Shown here one piece after another: positions 36,001 through 42,275 of a stretch of 64,000 bases of DNA. Position numbers: made by a program. The DNA is from Escherichia coli (GTDB lineage: Bacteria; Pseudomonadota; Gammaproteobacteria; Enterobacterales; Enterobacteriaceae): assembly GCF_044324875.1 (NCBI RefSeq), contig NZ_CP172185.1; one strand, 5' to 3'. Position 1 is the first letter of the stretch; each line of letters opens with the position of its first letter.

Positions 36001-39000
36001 CTGGGCGTACCGATTGAAGGCTCGATCCCGCTGTTTATGCTGGGCGTGGCGCTGAGTCTGTTTGCCACCACGTCAATCGGCATTTTCATGGGGACGATAG
36101 CGCGTTCGATGCCGCAACTGGGGCTGCTGGTGATTCTGGTGCTGCTGCCGCTACAAATGCTTTCCGGTGGATCCACGCCGCGCGAAAGTATGCCGCAGAT
36201 GGTGCAGGACATTATGCTGACCATGCCGACGACACACTTTGTTAGCCTCGCGCAGGCCATTCTCTACCGTGGTGCAGGATTCGAAATCGTCTGGCCGCAG
36301 TTCCTGACACTGATGGCAATTGGCGGCGCGTTTTTCACCATCGCACTGCTGAGATTCAGGAAGACAATTGGGACAATGGCGTAAATACAGTTGCCCGATG
36401 CGTAAGCTTATAGGGTCTACGCATCGGTACAATTTATTGAATTGTAGTTGTTTTACGCCGCATCCGGCGAAGATTTACTTAACCAACCGATGCCCCTCAT
36501 TCATCATCAGGATTTTGCTATACACATCTTCCTCGACGGCGTTTTTTGCTGATGCCATCACTCGTGCCAGATTCGCCTCGTTGTGATTATTCACATACGC
36601 TTTGCCGACGGCGGTGATAAACGCTTTGCGCAGATCGCTGGCGATATTTACTTTAGCGACGCGATAATTAACAAAGCTGCGTAATATTTCCGGGGCGATA
36701 CCGGAGCCGCCGTGAATAACCAGCGGCACCGGGCAGACTTCGGCAATGCGCTTCAGCAGGGGGATATCGATACGCGGTATATCGTCCAGGCCATGAACGT
36801 TGCCAATAGAAACTGCCAGCATGTCGCAACCGGTGCGCTCGACAAAGGTCTTCACCTTTTCCGGTTCCGTTTTGCAATCGGCTTCGCTGACGTGATCATC
36901 TTCTTTGCCGAGAATCGCCCCCAGCTCCGCTTCAACCGGTACGCCATAGGATTTACAGAAATCGACAGCTTCCTGGGTGAAAGCGATATTCTCTTCAAAA
37001 GATAATGCGGCACCGTCAATCATGACCGAGGTAAAGCCCGCGCGCACCGCCTGTTTAACATCCTCCTGAGTTTTCCCGTGATCCAGATGAAGACTGACCG
37101 GAACATCCATTTTATCGGCGTGACGTTTCACGATTTCATAAATGTAATCGTATCCCGAGAGTTGTGCATTGGTGGGCGCAATCTGAATGAAGTTGGGTAA
37201 TCCTGAACGCTCAATGGCGTTTAAAATTGAAATCGTCGTCTCCAGATTGGTGGTATTAAACGCGCCCGCTAATACCCGTTTTTCCTGAATGCGGTCGAGC
37301 AGTATCCGTCCATTAACTAATGGCATTTGAAAACCTCATCTTTTAATATCAGTTAATTATTCAGCTTCACCGAAGCGATCACGAAATAAGGCGGTGAGAG
37401 TTTGTATTGCCTCATTTTCATCATCGCCTTCGCAGCGTATTTCCACCGTTTTGCCGCCTTTTATTCCGGCGCGCATAATATTCATCATGCTGGTGGCATT
37501 AATATCATTACCCTCATAATGCAGCGTCACTTTACAGCTAAACTTTTTGGCGGCTTTCACCAGACACGCCGCCGGACGTGCATGCAGGCCAGTACTGTTT
37601 CTGACCTCCACGGTTTTACTCAACATAGTGCTCCTCCCGATGGTGTAATGGCATCACGCCTTCTTGCTGTAATTTCAACTGATACCAGCTTTTCCATTTG
37701 TGCTGATAACGCTGTAATTGATGGTATCTCGCCCGATTCGGTAACAAACGTTGGGCTATGGTAACTTGCGGCGGTGGAATATCCGGTGCGGCAGTTAATA
37801 ATGCTCCGACAGAAACCGCCTCGTTAAATGCAATTGCTTCAACCGGACGCTGTAAAATATCCGCTTTTAATTGCAGCCAAAGGGGATTTTGGGTTGCCGG
37901 ACCTATCACTTTTAACGCGCTGGTGCCAGGCACATTAAAACAGGCGAAGCAGTTGGCAAATTCCATGGTTAATCCCAGTGAGACGCTGGCAATTAACATG
38001 TCGATATTTAACGTATCGCCAAGCCCATAAAATAATCCACGAGTATGGCGATTTTTATAGGGCGAACCCGAACCGCGAAGATGTGGAATAAAGAGGGGAA
38101 TGTCATCGAGCGACCAGTTCCCCGCCAGGTAATCCGCATGTCCGCGAGTAAGTGATGCGGCGATCTCCTCATCGGTTAGCCGGAACGTGTTACGCAGCCA
38201 CTCCAGAGCGAAACCGCCCACGGGCAGCGACGCAAACAGGGTGAACTGGTTTGCAAGCGAATAACAGCCGTTTGCCAGCTTGTCACGTTTGGCCTGTTCA
38301 TCCAGCGTCGGTTGTGTATCCAGTTGCAGAATGCCTTCTGTGGTCCCCGTCGAGTTAAGGATATCGCCCGGCATCATCTGCAACGCTCGCGCACCCACCA
38401 TATGGTCATGTCCGGCCAGCGTCACGCTGACCGGTTGCGAGAACCCAAGCGTTTTGCAGAGCGACTCGCTGACCCATCCGGCGTGTTCGCCTGGCTGCAC
38501 CAATGGCGCAAATGCTGAACAGGGAACGTGTAACAACGCCGCCGCTTTCGCTGACCATTCGCCTTTGCGCACGTCAAGACACAGCGTGCGGCTGGCTAAG
38601 GTGATATCCGTGCGCTGTTCGCCGGTCAGCCGCCAGAGCAGTACTTCCGGCGCATGTAGCCAACGCAGGCCGCGGCGATTACGCAGTGGGTAATGTTCCA
38701 GCAACCAACGCATTTTGAAGGCAGAGTAATTGCTGTGCAGCGGTAACCCGCAAATGTCATAAAGTGCCGCACTGTCTGCCTCGCTAAGTGTTGCCAGATA
38801 CTCTTCACCGCGACGGTCATACCATGCCAGCATTGGCGTCAGGATCTCGCCATGCTCGTCAAGGAACACGCCTGACTCGCCAAAACTGGCAATGCTTATC
38901 CGCCTGACTGGCAGCGGCGAAGCGGCGTTCAGTTGCGCTATCGCCTGGCGGACCTCCTGCCAGAGGGCGTCGATATCGAAATCGACATTGCCCTGTGGGG

Positions 39001-42000
39001 AGATCTGTTTTGCCGTCACGAATTTATGCGCGCCCAACGTCGTTGCGTCCAGGCAGGAAAAGCAGGTGACTTTGCAATTGGTGGTGCCAATATCGATAAC
39101 GATAGCTGCGCTGTTATCAGGCATAAACCGTGCTCCGCGTCATTCGGAAAATACCATACAGTACCAGGGCGATAACCGGCACCAGACCAATGGCGATGAG
39201 ATTGCCGTTGAAGATTTCCAGCAGCCAGAAGCGGAACGGGTTACCGCCATCAAGGAAACTGGAGACCTGGCCGCTGGAGCCTTCGGCAAATTTGAAATTA
39301 ACGTCTTTCGCCATTCCGGTAATAAACGGCGCGATTTTAGTCGCAATCCACAGATCGGCAATAATCACCGGAATCGCCGCCAGAACGGTGCGGAAAATGT
39401 TGCCACGGCTGGCTAAAGCAATCATCGACGCCATTACCGCCAGGTTGGCAAGGTCGCCAAGCGGCAGGACTTCATTACCCGGAAGGACAAACGCGATAAA
39501 GACCGAGATTGGCGTCAGCAGCAGGGCGGTGGAGATAATCGCTGGGTTACCTACGGCAACGGCGATATCCAGGCCGATATAGAGATCGTCACGGTCAGGG
39601 TATTTGGCATTGAGATACTTTTTAATGGCTTCAGACAGCGGTAATAAACCTTCCATCAGAATGCGAACCATGCGTGGCAGGATGAACATCACACCGCCAA
39701 TGCTGATGCCAAGCAGCAAGACTTTTTTGAAATCGTATCCGGCAATTACGCCGAGCAGAATGCCCAGAATAGTACCAACCATCATCGGTTCGCCGAATAT
39801 GCCAAACTTTTTCTGTACGGTTTCCGGATCGATATGAATACGATTGAGGCCGGGGATATGGTCGATGATTTTGTCGACCAACAGACCGACCGGAAAGAAC
39901 ACCACCGAAGAGAGCGTCGGCAAAGAGATCCCTTCCAGGCCAAAGTATTTTTGTACCAGTGGCGCAGACCAGTCGGCGAGTTTAAGTACTACCACCGCAG
40001 CAATCGCCGCTGCCAGCAAACCAAAGAACAGGCTGCCGGTGCTGTAATAAACCAGCGTACCGGCAAGGGCAAAATGCCAGTAGTTCCACATATCTACGTC
40101 AACGGTGCGGGTTTTATTTAACGCCAGCATCGCCACGTTAATCAGAATAGTCAGGGGAATAACAAACGGGGCAATTGGCGAACCCCATGTAATAGCGGAA
40201 AGCGGCGGCCAGCCTAAATCCACCACCGGTAAATTAATTCCGGTGCGTTCAACCATCGCCTGGGCCGCTGGCCCGACATTGCTGGTAAGAATATCGAAAA
40301 TGGCATAAATACCGACAAAACCAATGCCGACCGTTAATGACGAACGTAAGGCTTTAGCGGGTTTTACTTTAAAAAAGAGAGCAAGAATAAATAACACCAA
40401 CGGCAACATTACCGTGGGACCAAATCCCAATATATATTGCACAATATTATAGAGGGTATGCGCGATATCGTTCATAATAAACCTCTTTTTCAGGCGAGAG
40501 CGCACCTCGCGTTAGCGCCTGATGGAGTGGGTTGAAATTAATTATTATTAATTACTTTTTAAGGATCGAAACAATTTGCGCCAGTACTTTCTCTTCGCCA
40601 ATACCGGTAATAATCGGCAAGCCGTTAACCACCGGGACGTCGAGTTCATAAGGCACTTTAGTCGTTGAGACTACCAGTGCTACGCCGTCAGTATTTCCAG
40701 GTAAAGAGGCAACGTTGGTTTGGGAATAATTGACGTTAAGACCGTGCTCTTTACAATATTCCATGACTTTTTCTGTTACCGCCGTGGATGTGGCAATACC
40801 CGTGGCGCAGACAAATAAAATGGTTTGACTCATATTTCACCTCGTTCTTTCATTTTGTTTAAGATTACTGTGTGTATTTCTGTTGTTTCCATCGTAAGCA
40901 GGGCGCGCATAAAGGGCGTATCCTGAATCATCTCCATAATCCAGCCCAGGGCATTTAATTGTTTATTACTTTCACTTAAGGCGAGCAAAAAAATCACCCT
41001 GACATGTACGGGGTCAGGATCGCCGCCCATATCGGCAAACTCTACCGGTTCCGGAAGGATGCCGACGGCAATTGCATTGTGCCTGACATATTTATGGTCC
41101 GTGTGCGGAATGGCGACGCACGGTGGTTCGGTAGGCAGCCCCGTTGGGTACGTCGCCTCACGTTTCAGTACGTGATCGGCAAAATCAGGGACCACCAGCT
41201 CAGCAGCAACCAACGGTTGCGCTAACTGACGGATGATCTGTTCAACGCTTAACCCTGCCGGAAGTCGTTGAATATAATTTTCCTGAAACTGTATGCCTTG
41301 CATTTTATTCCTCATAAAAAAGTGTATTTAACTCAATTCCCGCCGTTGCAGCACGGTGCCCAGATAATATTTATTTCCTTTTAACCAGACGTTGCCAAAC
41401 TCAACGGGTAACTCTCGGGAGAAAAAGACTAATTGCTCCAGATGCAAAACGGGTGCATCTTCACAGATATCTAAAAAATGACCGCGTTCATTACCAATTA
41501 ATCGCGCGGCATAGCGACTTTCCGAGTAACGAATTTTTCTTTTCGACAAACTTTCTATTGTTGGAAATAAATTGTGTTGATTAAAATCGATTTCCACGAT
41601 GCCGGGGCATAGCTCAATATTGATACGGTTCTCTATCAGCATCGCTTTTTCATCACCAATTGAACGTAAACGCTCAAGGTAAAGAATATCCTGACCGGGC
41701 GTTATTCTTAATTTCTCTGCCACATAACGATTAGCCGGTTCAATCCGTGACGTAATAACTTCAGTGGTAAAGTGTATTTTCTGGCTTTCCAGCGATTCCG
41801 CGAATGACAATAATCCTTCACCTAACGGATATGCCACGTTCTCTTTTTTGACAAATGTTCCCTTCCCCTGGACCTGAATCAACACGCCTTGTTTTACCAG
41901 TTGGGCGACAGCTTTTTTAACGGTTCCCCGACTCACTTCCAGCATATCCATAATCTGGTATTCCGAAGGAATGCGATCGTCTTCCACCAGATCCCCGGTA

Positions 42001-42275
42001 TAAATATTTTCTCTTATCCACTCCACCACTTGTTGATAGAGCGGTATTTGTGACGACTTACTCAATGATTTCATGGCGCGCACCTGAACATTTACAGTTG
42101 TCTATGGACAATCATGGACAACTTCAAGCGTATAGTAGGTGAACAGGCGAAAAAGAGGATCGAAGCGTCTCACATTTTAGGGGACTAAATCGTGATCAAA
42201 AAAATGTGACGTGAGTCGATATTTGGCAGAAGTCTACTGCGCCGTCAGGAAATAACGGCGCGTTGGGAGGTGTTA

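What the first reader, a model, noticed from the sequence alone, without database searches (positions are those of the whole stretch)
36475..42083. PTS operon with FGGY kinase, dedicated HPr-like protein and class II aldolase where K-12 carries an Rhs region
A GntR/HutC regulator, EIIA, EIIB and EIIC of the galactitol family, an FGGY-family kinase, an HPr paralog and a GatY/KbaY-like aldolase form one operon between nikR and yhhJ. The combination is unusual because PTS import already phosphorylates the substrate, and FGGY kinases normally act on free sugars. The pathway may therefore need a phosphatase or isomerase step, or use the kinase for a non-PTS intermediate. A private HPr suggests insulation from the general PTS. 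The substrate cannot be inferred from sequence alone.
Basis: partly seen in the sequence, partly recalled or inferred. Interest (0 to 1): 0.45.

Follow-up and report, generated by a model that had tools for sequence, protein, structure and literature searches.

The report
Uncharacterised PTS–kinase–aldolase sugar operon
This is an intact, horizontally acquired seven-gene operon, present in about 30% of complete E. coli genomes and in Salmonella, that most likely imports an unidentified rare ketose, phosphorylates it twice and splits it into two triose phosphates; only its use of an FGGY-type kinase is unusual.

Summary
Seven intact minus-strand genes lie between nikR and yhhJ, where K-12 carries rhsB. 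They encode a GntR/HutC regulator, EIIA, EIIB, a Gat-family EIIC, an FGGY kinase, an HPr paralog and a class II FBA-family aldolase. The cluster is in 1635 of 5426 complete E. coli genomes. It matches Salmonella STM3779-85, which a 2024 paper still lists under "unknown sugars".

A bisphosphate aldolase needs a second phosphorylation, as in the fructose, galactitol and tagatose-6-P pathways.

Across 79 species loci from three phyla:
- The kinase sits beside this aldolase family in every evaluable locus.
- All 65 PTS-linked loci have one FGGY kinase.
- All 14 PTS-less actinobacterial loci have an extra XylB-like kinase.
- The ketose-type operons carry no phosphatase or isomerase.

The aldolase keeps the arginine that binds the 6-phosphate in FBP aldolases. 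The kinase's active-site motifs resemble FucK and RhaB, which phosphorylate C1 of ketoses.

Best reading (about 0.55): PTS gives a ketose monophosphate, the FGGY kinase gives a 1,6-bisphosphate, and the aldolase gives triose phosphates. The substrate is unknown, and nothing has been tested biochemically. I rate it a new variant of a known kind, of moderate interest.

The parts
42096..42125 (-). Probable operator of the GntR/HutC regulator. It consists of the palindrome TTGTCCATAGACAA (42098-42111) plus an upstream TTGTCCAT half-site. It lies just downstream of a -10-like TACTAT and just upstream of the regulator's Shine-Dalgarno sequence.
   Evidence: The palindrome occurs once in the 64 kb window. 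The block AAGTTGTaCATGATTGTCyATAGACAACT is conserved upstream of the regulator gene in 10 of 11 Enterobacterales loci inspected, although the flanking sequence diverges. Related TTGTACA / TTGTATATAGACA repeats stand upstream in Mitsuokella, Selenomonas, Listeria, Enterococcus and Gilliamella. Binding was not tested.
41328..42074 (-). GntR/HutC-family transcriptional regulator (248 aa), first gene of the operon.
   Evidence: Pfam GntR and UTRA domains. No NCBIfam equivalog cut-off is reached. The RefSeq start is used. The GTG at 42083 lies inside the Shine-Dalgarno sequence AGGTG.
40830..41303 (-). PTS EIIA (fructose/mannitol-type EIIA_2), 157 aa.
   Evidence: PF00359 at 1.8e-32. Best NCBIfam hit is galactitol EIIA at 54.5 bits, below the 139-bit cut-off. 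The AIPHT histidine motif is visible in the translation.
40552..40833 (-). PTS EIIB (Lac/Gat type), 93 aa. It overlaps the EIIA gene by 4 nt.
   Evidence: PF02302. GatB model 60.2 bits, below the 95-bit cut-off. The N-terminal FVCATGIATS motif carries the expected active-site cysteine.
39117..40475 (-). PTS EIIC of the galactitol (Gat) family, 452 aa.
   Evidence: PF03611 at 2.7e-91. TIGR00827 scores 475.6 bits, below the 542.2-bit cut-off. It is 89% identical to the Salmonella protein and 76% identical to the Enterococcus protein.
37616..39124 (-). FGGY-family carbohydrate kinase, 502 aa. Its start overlaps the EIIC stop by 8 nt. It is the proposed second kinase, acting on a ketose phosphate.
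37357..37626 (-). HPr paralog, 89 aa. It overlaps the kinase gene by 11 nt.
   Evidence: PF00381 at 2.2e-30 and TIGR01003 at 105.9 bits, above the 47.9-bit cut-off. It is not the ptsH ortholog (PRK10850 56.5 bits against a 153-bit cut-off). The GLHARPA histidine motif is present. Such a gene is present in 35 of 65 PTS-linked loci.
36475..37326 (-). Class II (metal-dependent) FBA-family aldolase, 283 aa, last gene of the operon.
   Evidence: PF01116 at 1.2e-81. NF005943 (PRK07998) scores 556.7 bits, above its 364-bit cut-off. The GatY and KbaY models fall below their cut-offs. D82, H83, E134, H178 and N227 are invariant and R233 is 81 R plus 2 K across 83 kinase-linked aldolases.
36385..36474 (.). 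Structured intergenic region between the convergent aldolase and yhhJ genes. It holds an 11-bp-stem hairpin and a REP-like GCCGGATGCGGCG element. It is the probable transcript end.
   Evidence: RNA fold -28.7 kcal/mol, z-score -4.1 against shuffles. The sequence is shown. There is no clean U-run, so terminator function is inferred only.

Best explanation
This is a substrate-inducible catabolic operon for an unidentified ketose, most likely a rare ketohexose, that works by double phosphorylation followed by aldol cleavage.

1. The phosphoryl group passes from PEP via EI to the operon's HPr paralog or the general HPr, then to EIIA and EIIB. The Gat-family EIIC translocates the sugar, which emerges as a monophosphate, probably on the terminal carbon far from the keto group.
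2. The FGGY kinase uses ATP to add a second phosphate, probably at C1, giving a ketose 1,6-bisphosphate.
3. The class II aldolase splits this into DHAP and glyceraldehyde 3-phosphate.
4. The GntR/HutC protein represses the operon from the palindrome next to the promoter and is released by a pathway intermediate.

Shown here: gene content, family memberships, conservation of the module and the operator sequence. Inferred: every biochemical step, the order of the two phosphorylations and the substrate.
For: 1. Kinase and aldolase are an obligate pair. Among 79 species-representative loci from Proteobacteria, Firmicutes and Actinobacteria, the aldolase lies on the same strand next to the kinase in 75. 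The other four are truncated contigs or an ORF-calling artefact.
2. The PTS and a second kinase are mutually exclusive. All 65 loci with EIIC have exactly one FGGY gene. All 14 loci without a PTS (Actinobacteria, with ABC transporters) have two or three. The extra one is XylB-like (315-318 bits on TIGR01312) and follows the family kinase directly.
3. Polyol variants in Pantoea, Raoultella, Erwinia and Bacillales add Zn-dependent dehydrogenases whose best NCBIfam match is galactitol-1-phosphate 5-dehydrogenase (230-259 bits). That enzyme type yields a ketose 6-phosphate, which needs a 1-kinase before aldol cleavage.
4. The ketose-type operons, including those of E. coli, Salmonella, Enterococcus, Listeria and Pectinatus, contain only a regulator, EIIA, EIIB, EIIC, kinase and aldolase, with or without HPr. 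These five enzymes therefore suffice.
5. Aldolase R233 (81 R and 2 K of 83) aligns with the DTDLR arginine of Thermus FBA. This corresponds to H. pylori Arg259, a ligand of the FBP 6-phosphate (PMC10665668). The monophosphate aldolase YdjI has Cys at this position.
6. The kinase motifs FGESG, GHDH and STGTTE match FucK (FGVDG, GHDT, SSGTWE) and RhaB, both ketose C1 kinases. The actinobacterial second kinase has XylB-type motifs (GDNAA, LGTSGV). FucK is the best K-12 BLASTP match (108 bits against 86 for XylB).
7. The operator palindrome is conserved.
Against: - No FGGY kinase is known, to my knowledge, to act on a sugar phosphate.
- The PTS-or-second-kinase pattern is phylogenetically confounded, because all PTS-less loci are actinobacterial. 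It also fits the rival in which the family kinase acts after the aldolase.
- The second 6-phosphate ligand (R255, equivalent to H. pylori Arg280') is R or K in only 58 of 83 aldolases. The Ser49 equivalent is Pro/Thr.
- A conserved distal arginine could bind a carboxylate or sulfonate rather than a phosphate.
- Eight polyol-type loci carry SurE and one carries a HAD phosphatase, and their role is unexplained.
- No expression, growth or enzyme data exist for the E. coli operon in the literature I could search.
Confidence: 0.55

Rival explanations
1. The kinase acts after the aldolase. The PTS (or the second kinase in Actinobacteria) makes a ketose 1-phosphate. The aldolase cleaves this monophosphate to DHAP plus an unphosphorylated aldehyde such as glyceraldehyde. 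The FGGY kinase then phosphorylates that fragment, acting on a free small sugar as FGGY kinases normally do.
For: This keeps the FGGY kinase on a non-phosphorylated substrate, in line with all characterised family members (own knowledge). It explains the strict kinase-aldolase pairing and the PTS-or-second-kinase pattern equally well. FBA-family enzymes that cleave monophosphates exist, such as YdjI at 42-bit-scale E-values, and the SqiA sulfofructose-1-P aldolases (PMC10665668).
Against: The aldolase keeps the near-invariant arginine that binds the distal phosphate in FBP aldolases, whereas YdjI has Cys there. GatD-like dehydrogenases in the polyol variants imply a ketose phosphorylated on the far end, which a DHAP-dependent aldolase cannot cleave without prior C1 phosphorylation (established gat pathway). 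The kinase motifs resemble the ketose C1 kinases FucK and RhaB rather than glycerol kinase.
Confidence: 0.18
2. The PTS product must be dephosphorylated or isomerised before the FGGY kinase acts, or the kinase serves a free intracellular or non-PTS intermediate, for example sugar entering by another route.
For: FGGY kinases normally act on free sugars (own knowledge). SurE or HAD phosphatase genes occur in 9 polyol-type loci.
Against: None of the roughly 42 dehydrogenase-free PTS loci carries a phosphatase, isomerase, epimerase or glycosidase within the operon. The same five enzymes recur with different regulators in three phyla. Dephosphorylation followed by rephosphorylation would waste the PEP spent on uptake.
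Confidence: 0.1
3. The HPr paralog is mainly a regulatory partner of the FGGY kinase rather than, or as well as, a link in the uptake phosphorelay. It would couple kinase activity to the PTS phosphorylation state.
Against: The HPr gene is absent from 30 of 65 PTS loci. In Salmonella-type and polyol-type operons it follows the aldolase gene, not the kinase gene. Nothing was tested. This reading is compatible with the best explanation rather than exclusive of it.
Confidence: 0.1

Closest known systems
Salmonella enterica STM3779-STM3785 (next to uhpT, at the SPI-3 edge)
   Same: It has the same seven gene families next to uhpABCT. Identity to the window proteins is EIIC 89%, aldolase 90%, EIIB 84%, regulator 82%, kinase 63%, EIIA 61% and HPr 44%. 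It is transcribed in gut-community co-culture (PMC11000858).
   Different: The order of the last two genes is swapped (aldolase then HPr). The chromosomal site differs. Its function is also unknown: the 2024 paper lists it under 'Unknown sugars'.
E. coli galactitol pathway (GatABC PTS, GatD, PfkA, GatYZ)
   Same: It uses a Gat-family EIIA, EIIB and EIIC, a second ATP-dependent phosphorylation to a ketose 1,6-bisphosphate, and class II FBA-family aldolase cleavage (established knowledge; family matches).
   Different: The window operon has no GatD dehydrogenase and no GatZ partner. Its kinase is operon-encoded and FGGY rather than the housekeeping PfkA. Its regulator is GntR/HutC rather than DeoR-type GatR. 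All Gat equivalog models score below their cut-offs.
Fructose regulon fruBKA and the Klebsiella/Salmonella D-tagatose genes (tagK, tagH, tagT)
   Same: Both use a PTS with its own HPr-like protein or domain, a dedicated 1-phosphate kinase and then a bisphosphate aldolase (own knowledge, Shakeri-Garakani et al. 2004). The private HPr seen here has this precedent.
   Different: Those PTS belong to the fructose family and their kinases to the PfkB family. Salmonella already has tagatose genes, listed as STM3253-5 in PMC11000858, which lowers the chance that D-tagatose is the substrate here.
L-fucose and L-rhamnose pathways (FucK/FucA, RhaB/RhaD)
   Same: An FGGY kinase phosphorylates C1 of a 2-ketose and is followed by a DHAP-releasing metal-dependent aldolase. 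The kinase motifs are shared. FucK is the closest K-12 FGGY paralog (27% identity).
   Different: Their substrates are free 6-deoxyketoses imported by permeases. Their aldolases have a different fold (PF00596, not PF01116). No PTS is involved and the intermediate is a monophosphate.
Tagatose-6-phosphate pathway of Gram-positive bacteria (LacAB, LacC, LacD)
   Same: It follows the same logic: a PTS-derived hexose 6-phosphate, then a 1-kinase, then a bisphosphate aldolase (own knowledge).
   Different: LacC is a PfkB kinase and LacD is a class I aldolase. An isomerase (LacAB) is needed.

Membership tests
PTS galactitol (Gat) family, TC 4.A.5 | EIIC of the EIIC-GAT family with separate EIIB (Lac/Gat type) and EIIA (EIIA_2 type) proteins | tested here: met
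   PF03611 at 2.7e-91, PF02302 at 1.3e-10 and PF00359 at 1.8e-32.
PTS galactitol (Gat) family, TC 4.A.5 | Phosphorylatable residues: EIIB N-terminal Cys, EIIA His | tested here: met
   The motifs FVCATGIATS (Cys9) and VAIPHT are read directly from the translations. Phosphorylation itself was not tested.
Galactitol-specific GatABC (equivalogs) | Scores above the NCBIfam equivalog or subfamily cut-offs for GatA, GatB and GatC | tested here: not met
   GatA 54.5 against 139, GatB 60.2 against 95, and TIGR00827 475.6 against 542.2 bits. It is a Gat-family member but not the galactitol transporter.
gat operon / galactitol pathway | Galactitol-1-phosphate dehydrogenase GatD and the aldolase partner GatZ in the cluster | tested here: not met
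   No dehydrogenase or GatZ-like ORF lies between nikR and yhhJ.
FGGY carbohydrate kinase family | N- and C-terminal FGGY domains, catalytic Asp, FGGY fold | tested here: met
Characterised FGGY specificities (XylB, GlpK, FucK, RhaB, GntK, LsrK, AraB) | Score above the equivalog cut-off of any of these models | tested here: not met
   The best hits are XylB 146.8 against 380, GlpK 129.1 against 590, FucK 120.6 against 471 and RhaB 60.8 against 528 bits. The family forms its own clade, apart from the XylB-like kinases.
Class II (metal-dependent) FBA-family aldolases, PF01116 | Domain match and conserved catalytic residues (the Asp-His pair of LHLDHG, the His of NVHG and of IHGGSG, the Glu of EAELG) | tested here: met
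   PF01116 at 1.2e-81. D82, H83, E134 and H178 are invariant in 83 sequences. H205 is read from the sequence.
Tagatose-bisphosphate aldolases GatY / KbaY | Score above the GatY or KbaY NCBIfam cut-offs | tested here: not met
   GatY subfamily 239.8 against 383 and KbaY 180 against 542 bits. The protein belongs instead to NF005943 (PRK07998, 'class II aldolase'), with 556.7 bits against a 364-bit cut-off.
Ketose 1,6-bisphosphate (as opposed to monophosphate) aldolases | Residues that bind the distal (C6) phosphate: H. pylori Ser49, Arg259 and Arg280' (PMC10665668) | tested here: inconclusive
   The Arg259 equivalent (R233) is conserved, with 81 R and 2 K of 83. The Arg280' equivalent (R255) is R or K in 58 of 83. 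The Ser49 position is Pro/Thr. Substrate specificity needs enzymology.
HPr family | PTS-HPr domain with the His15 motif | tested here: met
   PF00381 at 2.2e-30. TIGR01003 105.9 bits against a 47.9-bit cut-off. The GLHARPA motif is present. It is not the ptsH ortholog (56.5 against 153 bits).
GntR/HutC subfamily regulators | N-terminal GntR winged helix-turn-helix plus C-terminal UTRA effector domain | tested here: met
   PF00392 at 1.5e-15 and PF07702 at 1.2e-25. No named equivalog is reached.
Single operon (co-transcription) | One transcript covering all seven genes | not testable with these tools
   Support is indirect only. The genes overlap or have gaps of at most 76 nt. There is one conserved operator and -10 region upstream of the first gene. 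Internal promoter and terminator hits are at chance level. A structured region follows the last gene.

The most novel reading that the evidence does not exclude
The kinase defines an FGGY subfamily whose substrate is a sugar phosphate, acting as a ketose-6-phosphate 1-kinase. This specificity has, to my knowledge, never been shown for FGGY enzymes. Together with its dedicated class II aldolase it would form a three-phylum module for rare ketohexoses and hexitols. In E. coli (B2 strains such as Nissle, and O157/O145-type strains) and Salmonella it would open a private sugar niche in the gut.
Probability: 0.45. Interest if true: 0.55.

Novelty: new variant of a known kind. Interest (0 to 1): 0.4.

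Why it matters
Nearly a third of complete E. coli genomes carry this operon, including the probiotic Nissle 1917 and O145/O157-type pathogens. Salmonella and many other Enterobacterales, enterococci and Negativicutes carry it too. Its substrate is nevertheless unknown, and it is still listed under "unknown sugars". Strain-specific sugar use often decides who colonises the gut, so identifying the substrate could explain niche differences between strains. 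Showing that an FGGY kinase phosphorylates a sugar phosphate would extend the known chemistry of a large enzyme family. It would also correct many automatic annotations such as "L-fuculokinase" and "xylulokinase-like". The pathway logic itself is classical, so the result would be useful rather than revolutionary.

Tried and rejected
- **Literature.** All ten full-text searches failed to find a functional study. They used combinations of nikR, yhhJ, PTS, the STM3780-84 locus tags, FGGY, galactitol, tagatose, HPr, aldolase and the RefSeq product names. Only expression or gene-content mentions of the Salmonella genes turned up. Subscription-journal papers are not searchable, so absence is not proof.
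- **D-tagatose.** I considered it as the substrate and down-weighted it. Salmonella has separate tagatose genes (STM3253-5). From memory, E. coli isolates are generally tagatose-negative.
- **Promoter and terminator scan.** Hits were at chance level and missed the likely promoter.
- **CRP site search.** The window gave fewer hits than shuffles and none in the operon's upstream region at two or fewer mismatches. Good TGTGA-N6-TCACA sites are visible upstream in Rahnella, Mangrovibacter and Cedecea.
- **YdjI paper.** An attempt to read it by DOI failed.
- **Kinase gene replacement.** The kinase is only 37% identical between E. coli and Enterococcus while EIIC is 76%. I considered replacement by a foreign gene and rejected it in favour of rate differences. 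The same ranking of gene identities holds between E. coli and Salmonella, and GC content differs only modestly between the genes.

Full report
**What is there.** Between nikR and yhhJ the window carries seven co-directional minus-strand genes:
- a GntR/HutC regulator (41328-42074)
- PTS EIIA (40830-41303)
- PTS EIIB (40552-40833)
- a Gat-family EIIC (39117-40475)
- an FGGY kinase (37616-39124)
- an HPr paralog (37357-37626)
- a class II FBA-family aldolase (36475-37326)

Every assignment rests on a strong Pfam match. RefSeq annotation of the same locus in E. coli Nissle 1917 calls the same seven genes with identical lengths, so all are intact. Three starts were moved to the RefSeq ATGs. For the regulator this is also supported by an AGGTG Shine-Dalgarno sequence that contains the alternative GTG. 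K-12 MG1655 has rhsB, yhhH, yrhC and yhhI at this site.

**Distribution.**
- A megablast of the 6 kb region finds it at 80% coverage or more in 1635 of 5426 complete E. coli genomes, always chromosomal and single-copy. These include Nissle 1917 and O145:H28 strains.
- The GC3 of the seven genes (0.42-0.58) is below that of the flanking nikR and yhhJ (0.66-0.68). This fits horizontal acquisition.
- Homologues of the kinase are 60-98% identical across Enterobacterales. Identity then drops to 35-40% in Enterococcus, Listeria, Pectinatus, Mitsuokella and others.
- The Salmonella locus lies beside uhpT, uhpC and uhpB with the same seven families. This matches STM3779-85.
- Papers mentioning these genes treat them as putative sugar genes. 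A 2024 transcriptome paper lists "Unknown sugars: STM3780-85" separately from "Tagatose: STM3253-5" (PMC11000858).
- Ten full-text searches found no functional characterisation of this operon or of the kinase family.

**Comparative genomics.** One scan of species-representative genomes with an alignment of the kinase returned 80 loci. I compared their six-frame ORFs with the seven window proteins and with neighbour families identified by Pfam. Three results stand out.
1. The class II aldolase lies next to the kinase, on the same strand, in 75 of 79 loci. The four exceptions are a 1.3 kb contig, two kinases at contig ends and one ORF-overlap artefact. Kinase and aldolase are therefore an obligate pair across Proteobacteria, Firmicutes and Actinobacteria.
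2. About 42 of the 65 PTS-linked loci contain nothing but a regulator (GntR/HutC or Mga/PRD type), EIIA, EIIB, EIIC, kinase and aldolase, with or without HPr. No dehydrogenase, isomerase, epimerase, phosphatase or glycosidase is present. These five enzymes must therefore be a complete route into central metabolism, and the substrate is probably already a ketose.
3. Variants extend the module at the front end.
   - Pantoea, Raoultella, Erwinia, Serratia and several Bacillales add one or two Zn-dependent dehydrogenases. Their best NCBIfam match is galactitol-1-phosphate 5-dehydrogenase (230-259 bits, below the cut-off).
   - The 14 actinobacterial loci have no PTS. They carry an ABC transporter and, directly after the family kinase, a second FGGY kinase that is XylB-like (315-318 bits on TIGR01312). 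A third, degenerate FGGY gene often follows.
   - All 65 PTS loci have one FGGY kinase and all 14 PTS-less loci have two or three.

**Mechanism.** The simplest reading is that two phosphorylations are needed. The first comes from the PTS, or from the XylB-like kinase where there is no PTS. The second comes from the family kinase. The aldolase then cleaves a ketose 1,6-bisphosphate into two triose phosphates. This is the logic of the fructose (FruBA, FruK, Fba), galactitol (GatABC, GatD, PfkA, GatYZ) and tagatose-6-phosphate (LacC, LacD) pathways, which is established knowledge. Only the kinase family is unusual.

Two sequence observations favour a bisphosphate intermediate.
- **Aldolase.** In an alignment of 83 kinase-linked aldolases, R233 is R in 81 and K in 2. 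It aligns with the arginine of the DTDLR motif of Thermus FBA, with Lys in the tagatose-bisphosphate aldolase AgaY, and with Cys in YdjI, which cleaves a monophosphate. By motif and spacing it corresponds to H. pylori Arg259, which contacts the 6-phosphate of FBP (PMC10665668). The second ligand (R255, aligned with AgaY R257 and H. pylori Arg280') is less conserved, at 58 of 83. The position four residues before R233 is Ala, as in AgaY, and not the Asp of FBP aldolases. From memory of work on the Giardia enzyme, this is linked to non-fructose stereochemistry, but that is a lead, not a test.
- **Kinase.** The invariant motifs FGESG, GHDH and STGTTE resemble FucK (FGVDG, GHDT, SSGTWE) and RhaB (WGVDF, SHDT, SSGTWS), which phosphorylate C1 of 2-ketoses. 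The actinobacterial second kinase has the XylB motifs (GDNAA, LGTSGV) of a terminal-carbon kinase. FucK is also the best K-12 BLASTP match (108 bits against 86 for XylB). This suggests a division of labour. The far end would be phosphorylated first, as Gat-type PTS and XylB-like kinases do, and C1 second.

**Limits.**
- No FGGY enzyme is known to me to accept a phosphosugar.
- The PTS-or-second-kinase pattern coincides with one phylum. It is also predicted by the main rival, in which the aldolase cleaves a ketose 1-phosphate and the family kinase phosphorylates the released aldehyde.
- The distal arginine could bind another anion.
- SurE or HAD phosphatases in nine polyol-type loci remain unexplained.

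**Substrate.** It cannot be named. D-tagatose is less likely because Salmonella has separate tag genes. Fructose and tagatose 6-phosphates would not need a dedicated kinase in E. coli, since PfkA handles them (established knowledge). Rare ketohexoses such as D-psicose or D-sorbose are reasonable candidates, but this is conjecture.

**Regulation and transcript.**
- The genes overlap by 4, 8 and 11 nt or are separated by 24, 30 and 76 nt.
- A palindrome, TTGTCCATAGACAA (42098-42111), occurs once in the window. With an adjacent half-site it forms a block conserved upstream of the regulator gene in 10 of 11 Enterobacterales loci inspected. Related repeats occur in Firmicutes and Gilliamella. It sits just after a conserved -10-like TAnnAT, which fits an autoregulated repressor.
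- The 90 nt between the aldolase and the convergent yhhJ fold into a stable hairpin (-28.7 kcal/mol, z -4.1).
- Generic promoter and terminator scans were at chance level. Co-transcription is likely but unproven.

**HPr paralog.** It is a true HPr-family protein but not PtsH. Such a gene occurs in 35 of 65 PTS loci. These are all the Enterobacterales loci and some Bacillales, but not the Enterococcus, Listeria, Negativicutes or Gilliamella versions. Private HPr-like proteins are known from the fructose and tagatose systems (own knowledge). Whether this one insulates the system, raises flux or regulates the kinase cannot be decided here. FGGY kinases are known PTS targets, as in the LsrK-HPr complex 5ya0.

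**Verdict.** The operon is a real, widespread and still uncharacterised sugar-catabolic module. Its architecture is a variant of a well-known pathway type, with an FGGY kinase in the place usually held by PfkB or PfkA. Interest is moderate. The work needed to settle it (an inducer screen, two enzyme assays, mutant metabolomics) is straightforward.

Noticed in passing
L002 3158-3789 (E. coli 2011C-4315); equivalent to window about 36385-36474: In O145/O157-type strains a hicA-hicB toxin-antitoxin pair is inserted between yhhJ and the aldolase gene. This accounts for the two-piece, 98%-coverage matches.
   Followed up: partly
window 36475-42074 compared with L003, L004 and L007: Conservation is very uneven within the operon. 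Between E. coli and Enterococcus or Listeria, EIIC is 76-77% identical, aldolase 68-69% and EIIB 64-68%, but the kinase only 36-37% and EIIA 40%. The same ranking holds against Salmonella (89, 90 and 84% against 63 and 61%, with HPr at 44%). This points to recent inter-phylum transfer together with fast-evolving kinase, EIIA and HPr genes.
   Followed up: partly
L050 10966-12423; L087 11022-12371 (also L064, L066, L070, L085, L089): Many actinobacterial loci carry a third FGGY-like gene that matches only the N-terminal FGGY domain (XylB model 75 bits). It may be a degenerate or regulatory paralog.
   Followed up: no
L042 12681-13469 (SurE); L060 10646-11446 (HAD, Cof-type): Phosphatase genes sit inside the polyol-type versions of the operon. 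SurE is in 8 Enterobacterales loci and a HAD hydrolase in Staphylococcus pseudoxylosus. Their role next to a double-phosphorylation pathway is unexplained.
   Followed up: no
L035 9896-16616 (Enterococcus raffinosus; likewise L036 and L037): In the E. avium group the module is followed directly by a second FBA-family aldolase, an Mga/PRD regulator, a mannose/sorbose-type PTS (EIIA to EIID) and a Zn-dependent dehydrogenase. This resembles the L. casei sorbose operon as I remember it, and suggests a ketose-utilisation island.
   Followed up: no
upstream of the regulator gene in L014, L022, L026 and L027; window 42120-42270: Good CRP-like sites (TGTGA-N6-TCACA) stand upstream of the operon in Rahnella, Cedecea, Mangrovibacter and others. 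The E. coli sequence at the matching place is degenerate (ATCGA-N6-TCACA) and was not found at two or fewer mismatches.
   Followed up: partly
window 36440-36470: A REP-like fragment (GCCGGATGCGGCGTAAA) lies directly after the aldolase stop codon, ahead of the larger hairpin.
   Followed up: no
window 29473-31095: A low-GC stretch (0.38-0.39) coincides with a 540-aa ORF of the same length as K-12 yhiJ (DUF4049). It appears ordinary for this region.
   Followed up: no
window 37357-37626: The HPr paralog scores higher on Gram-positive-type HPr models (PRK13780 80 bits, PRK13782 74 bits) than on the enterobacterial PtsH model (56 bits). Yet the Enterococcus, Listeria and Negativicutes versions of the operon inspected lack an HPr gene.
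   Followed up: no
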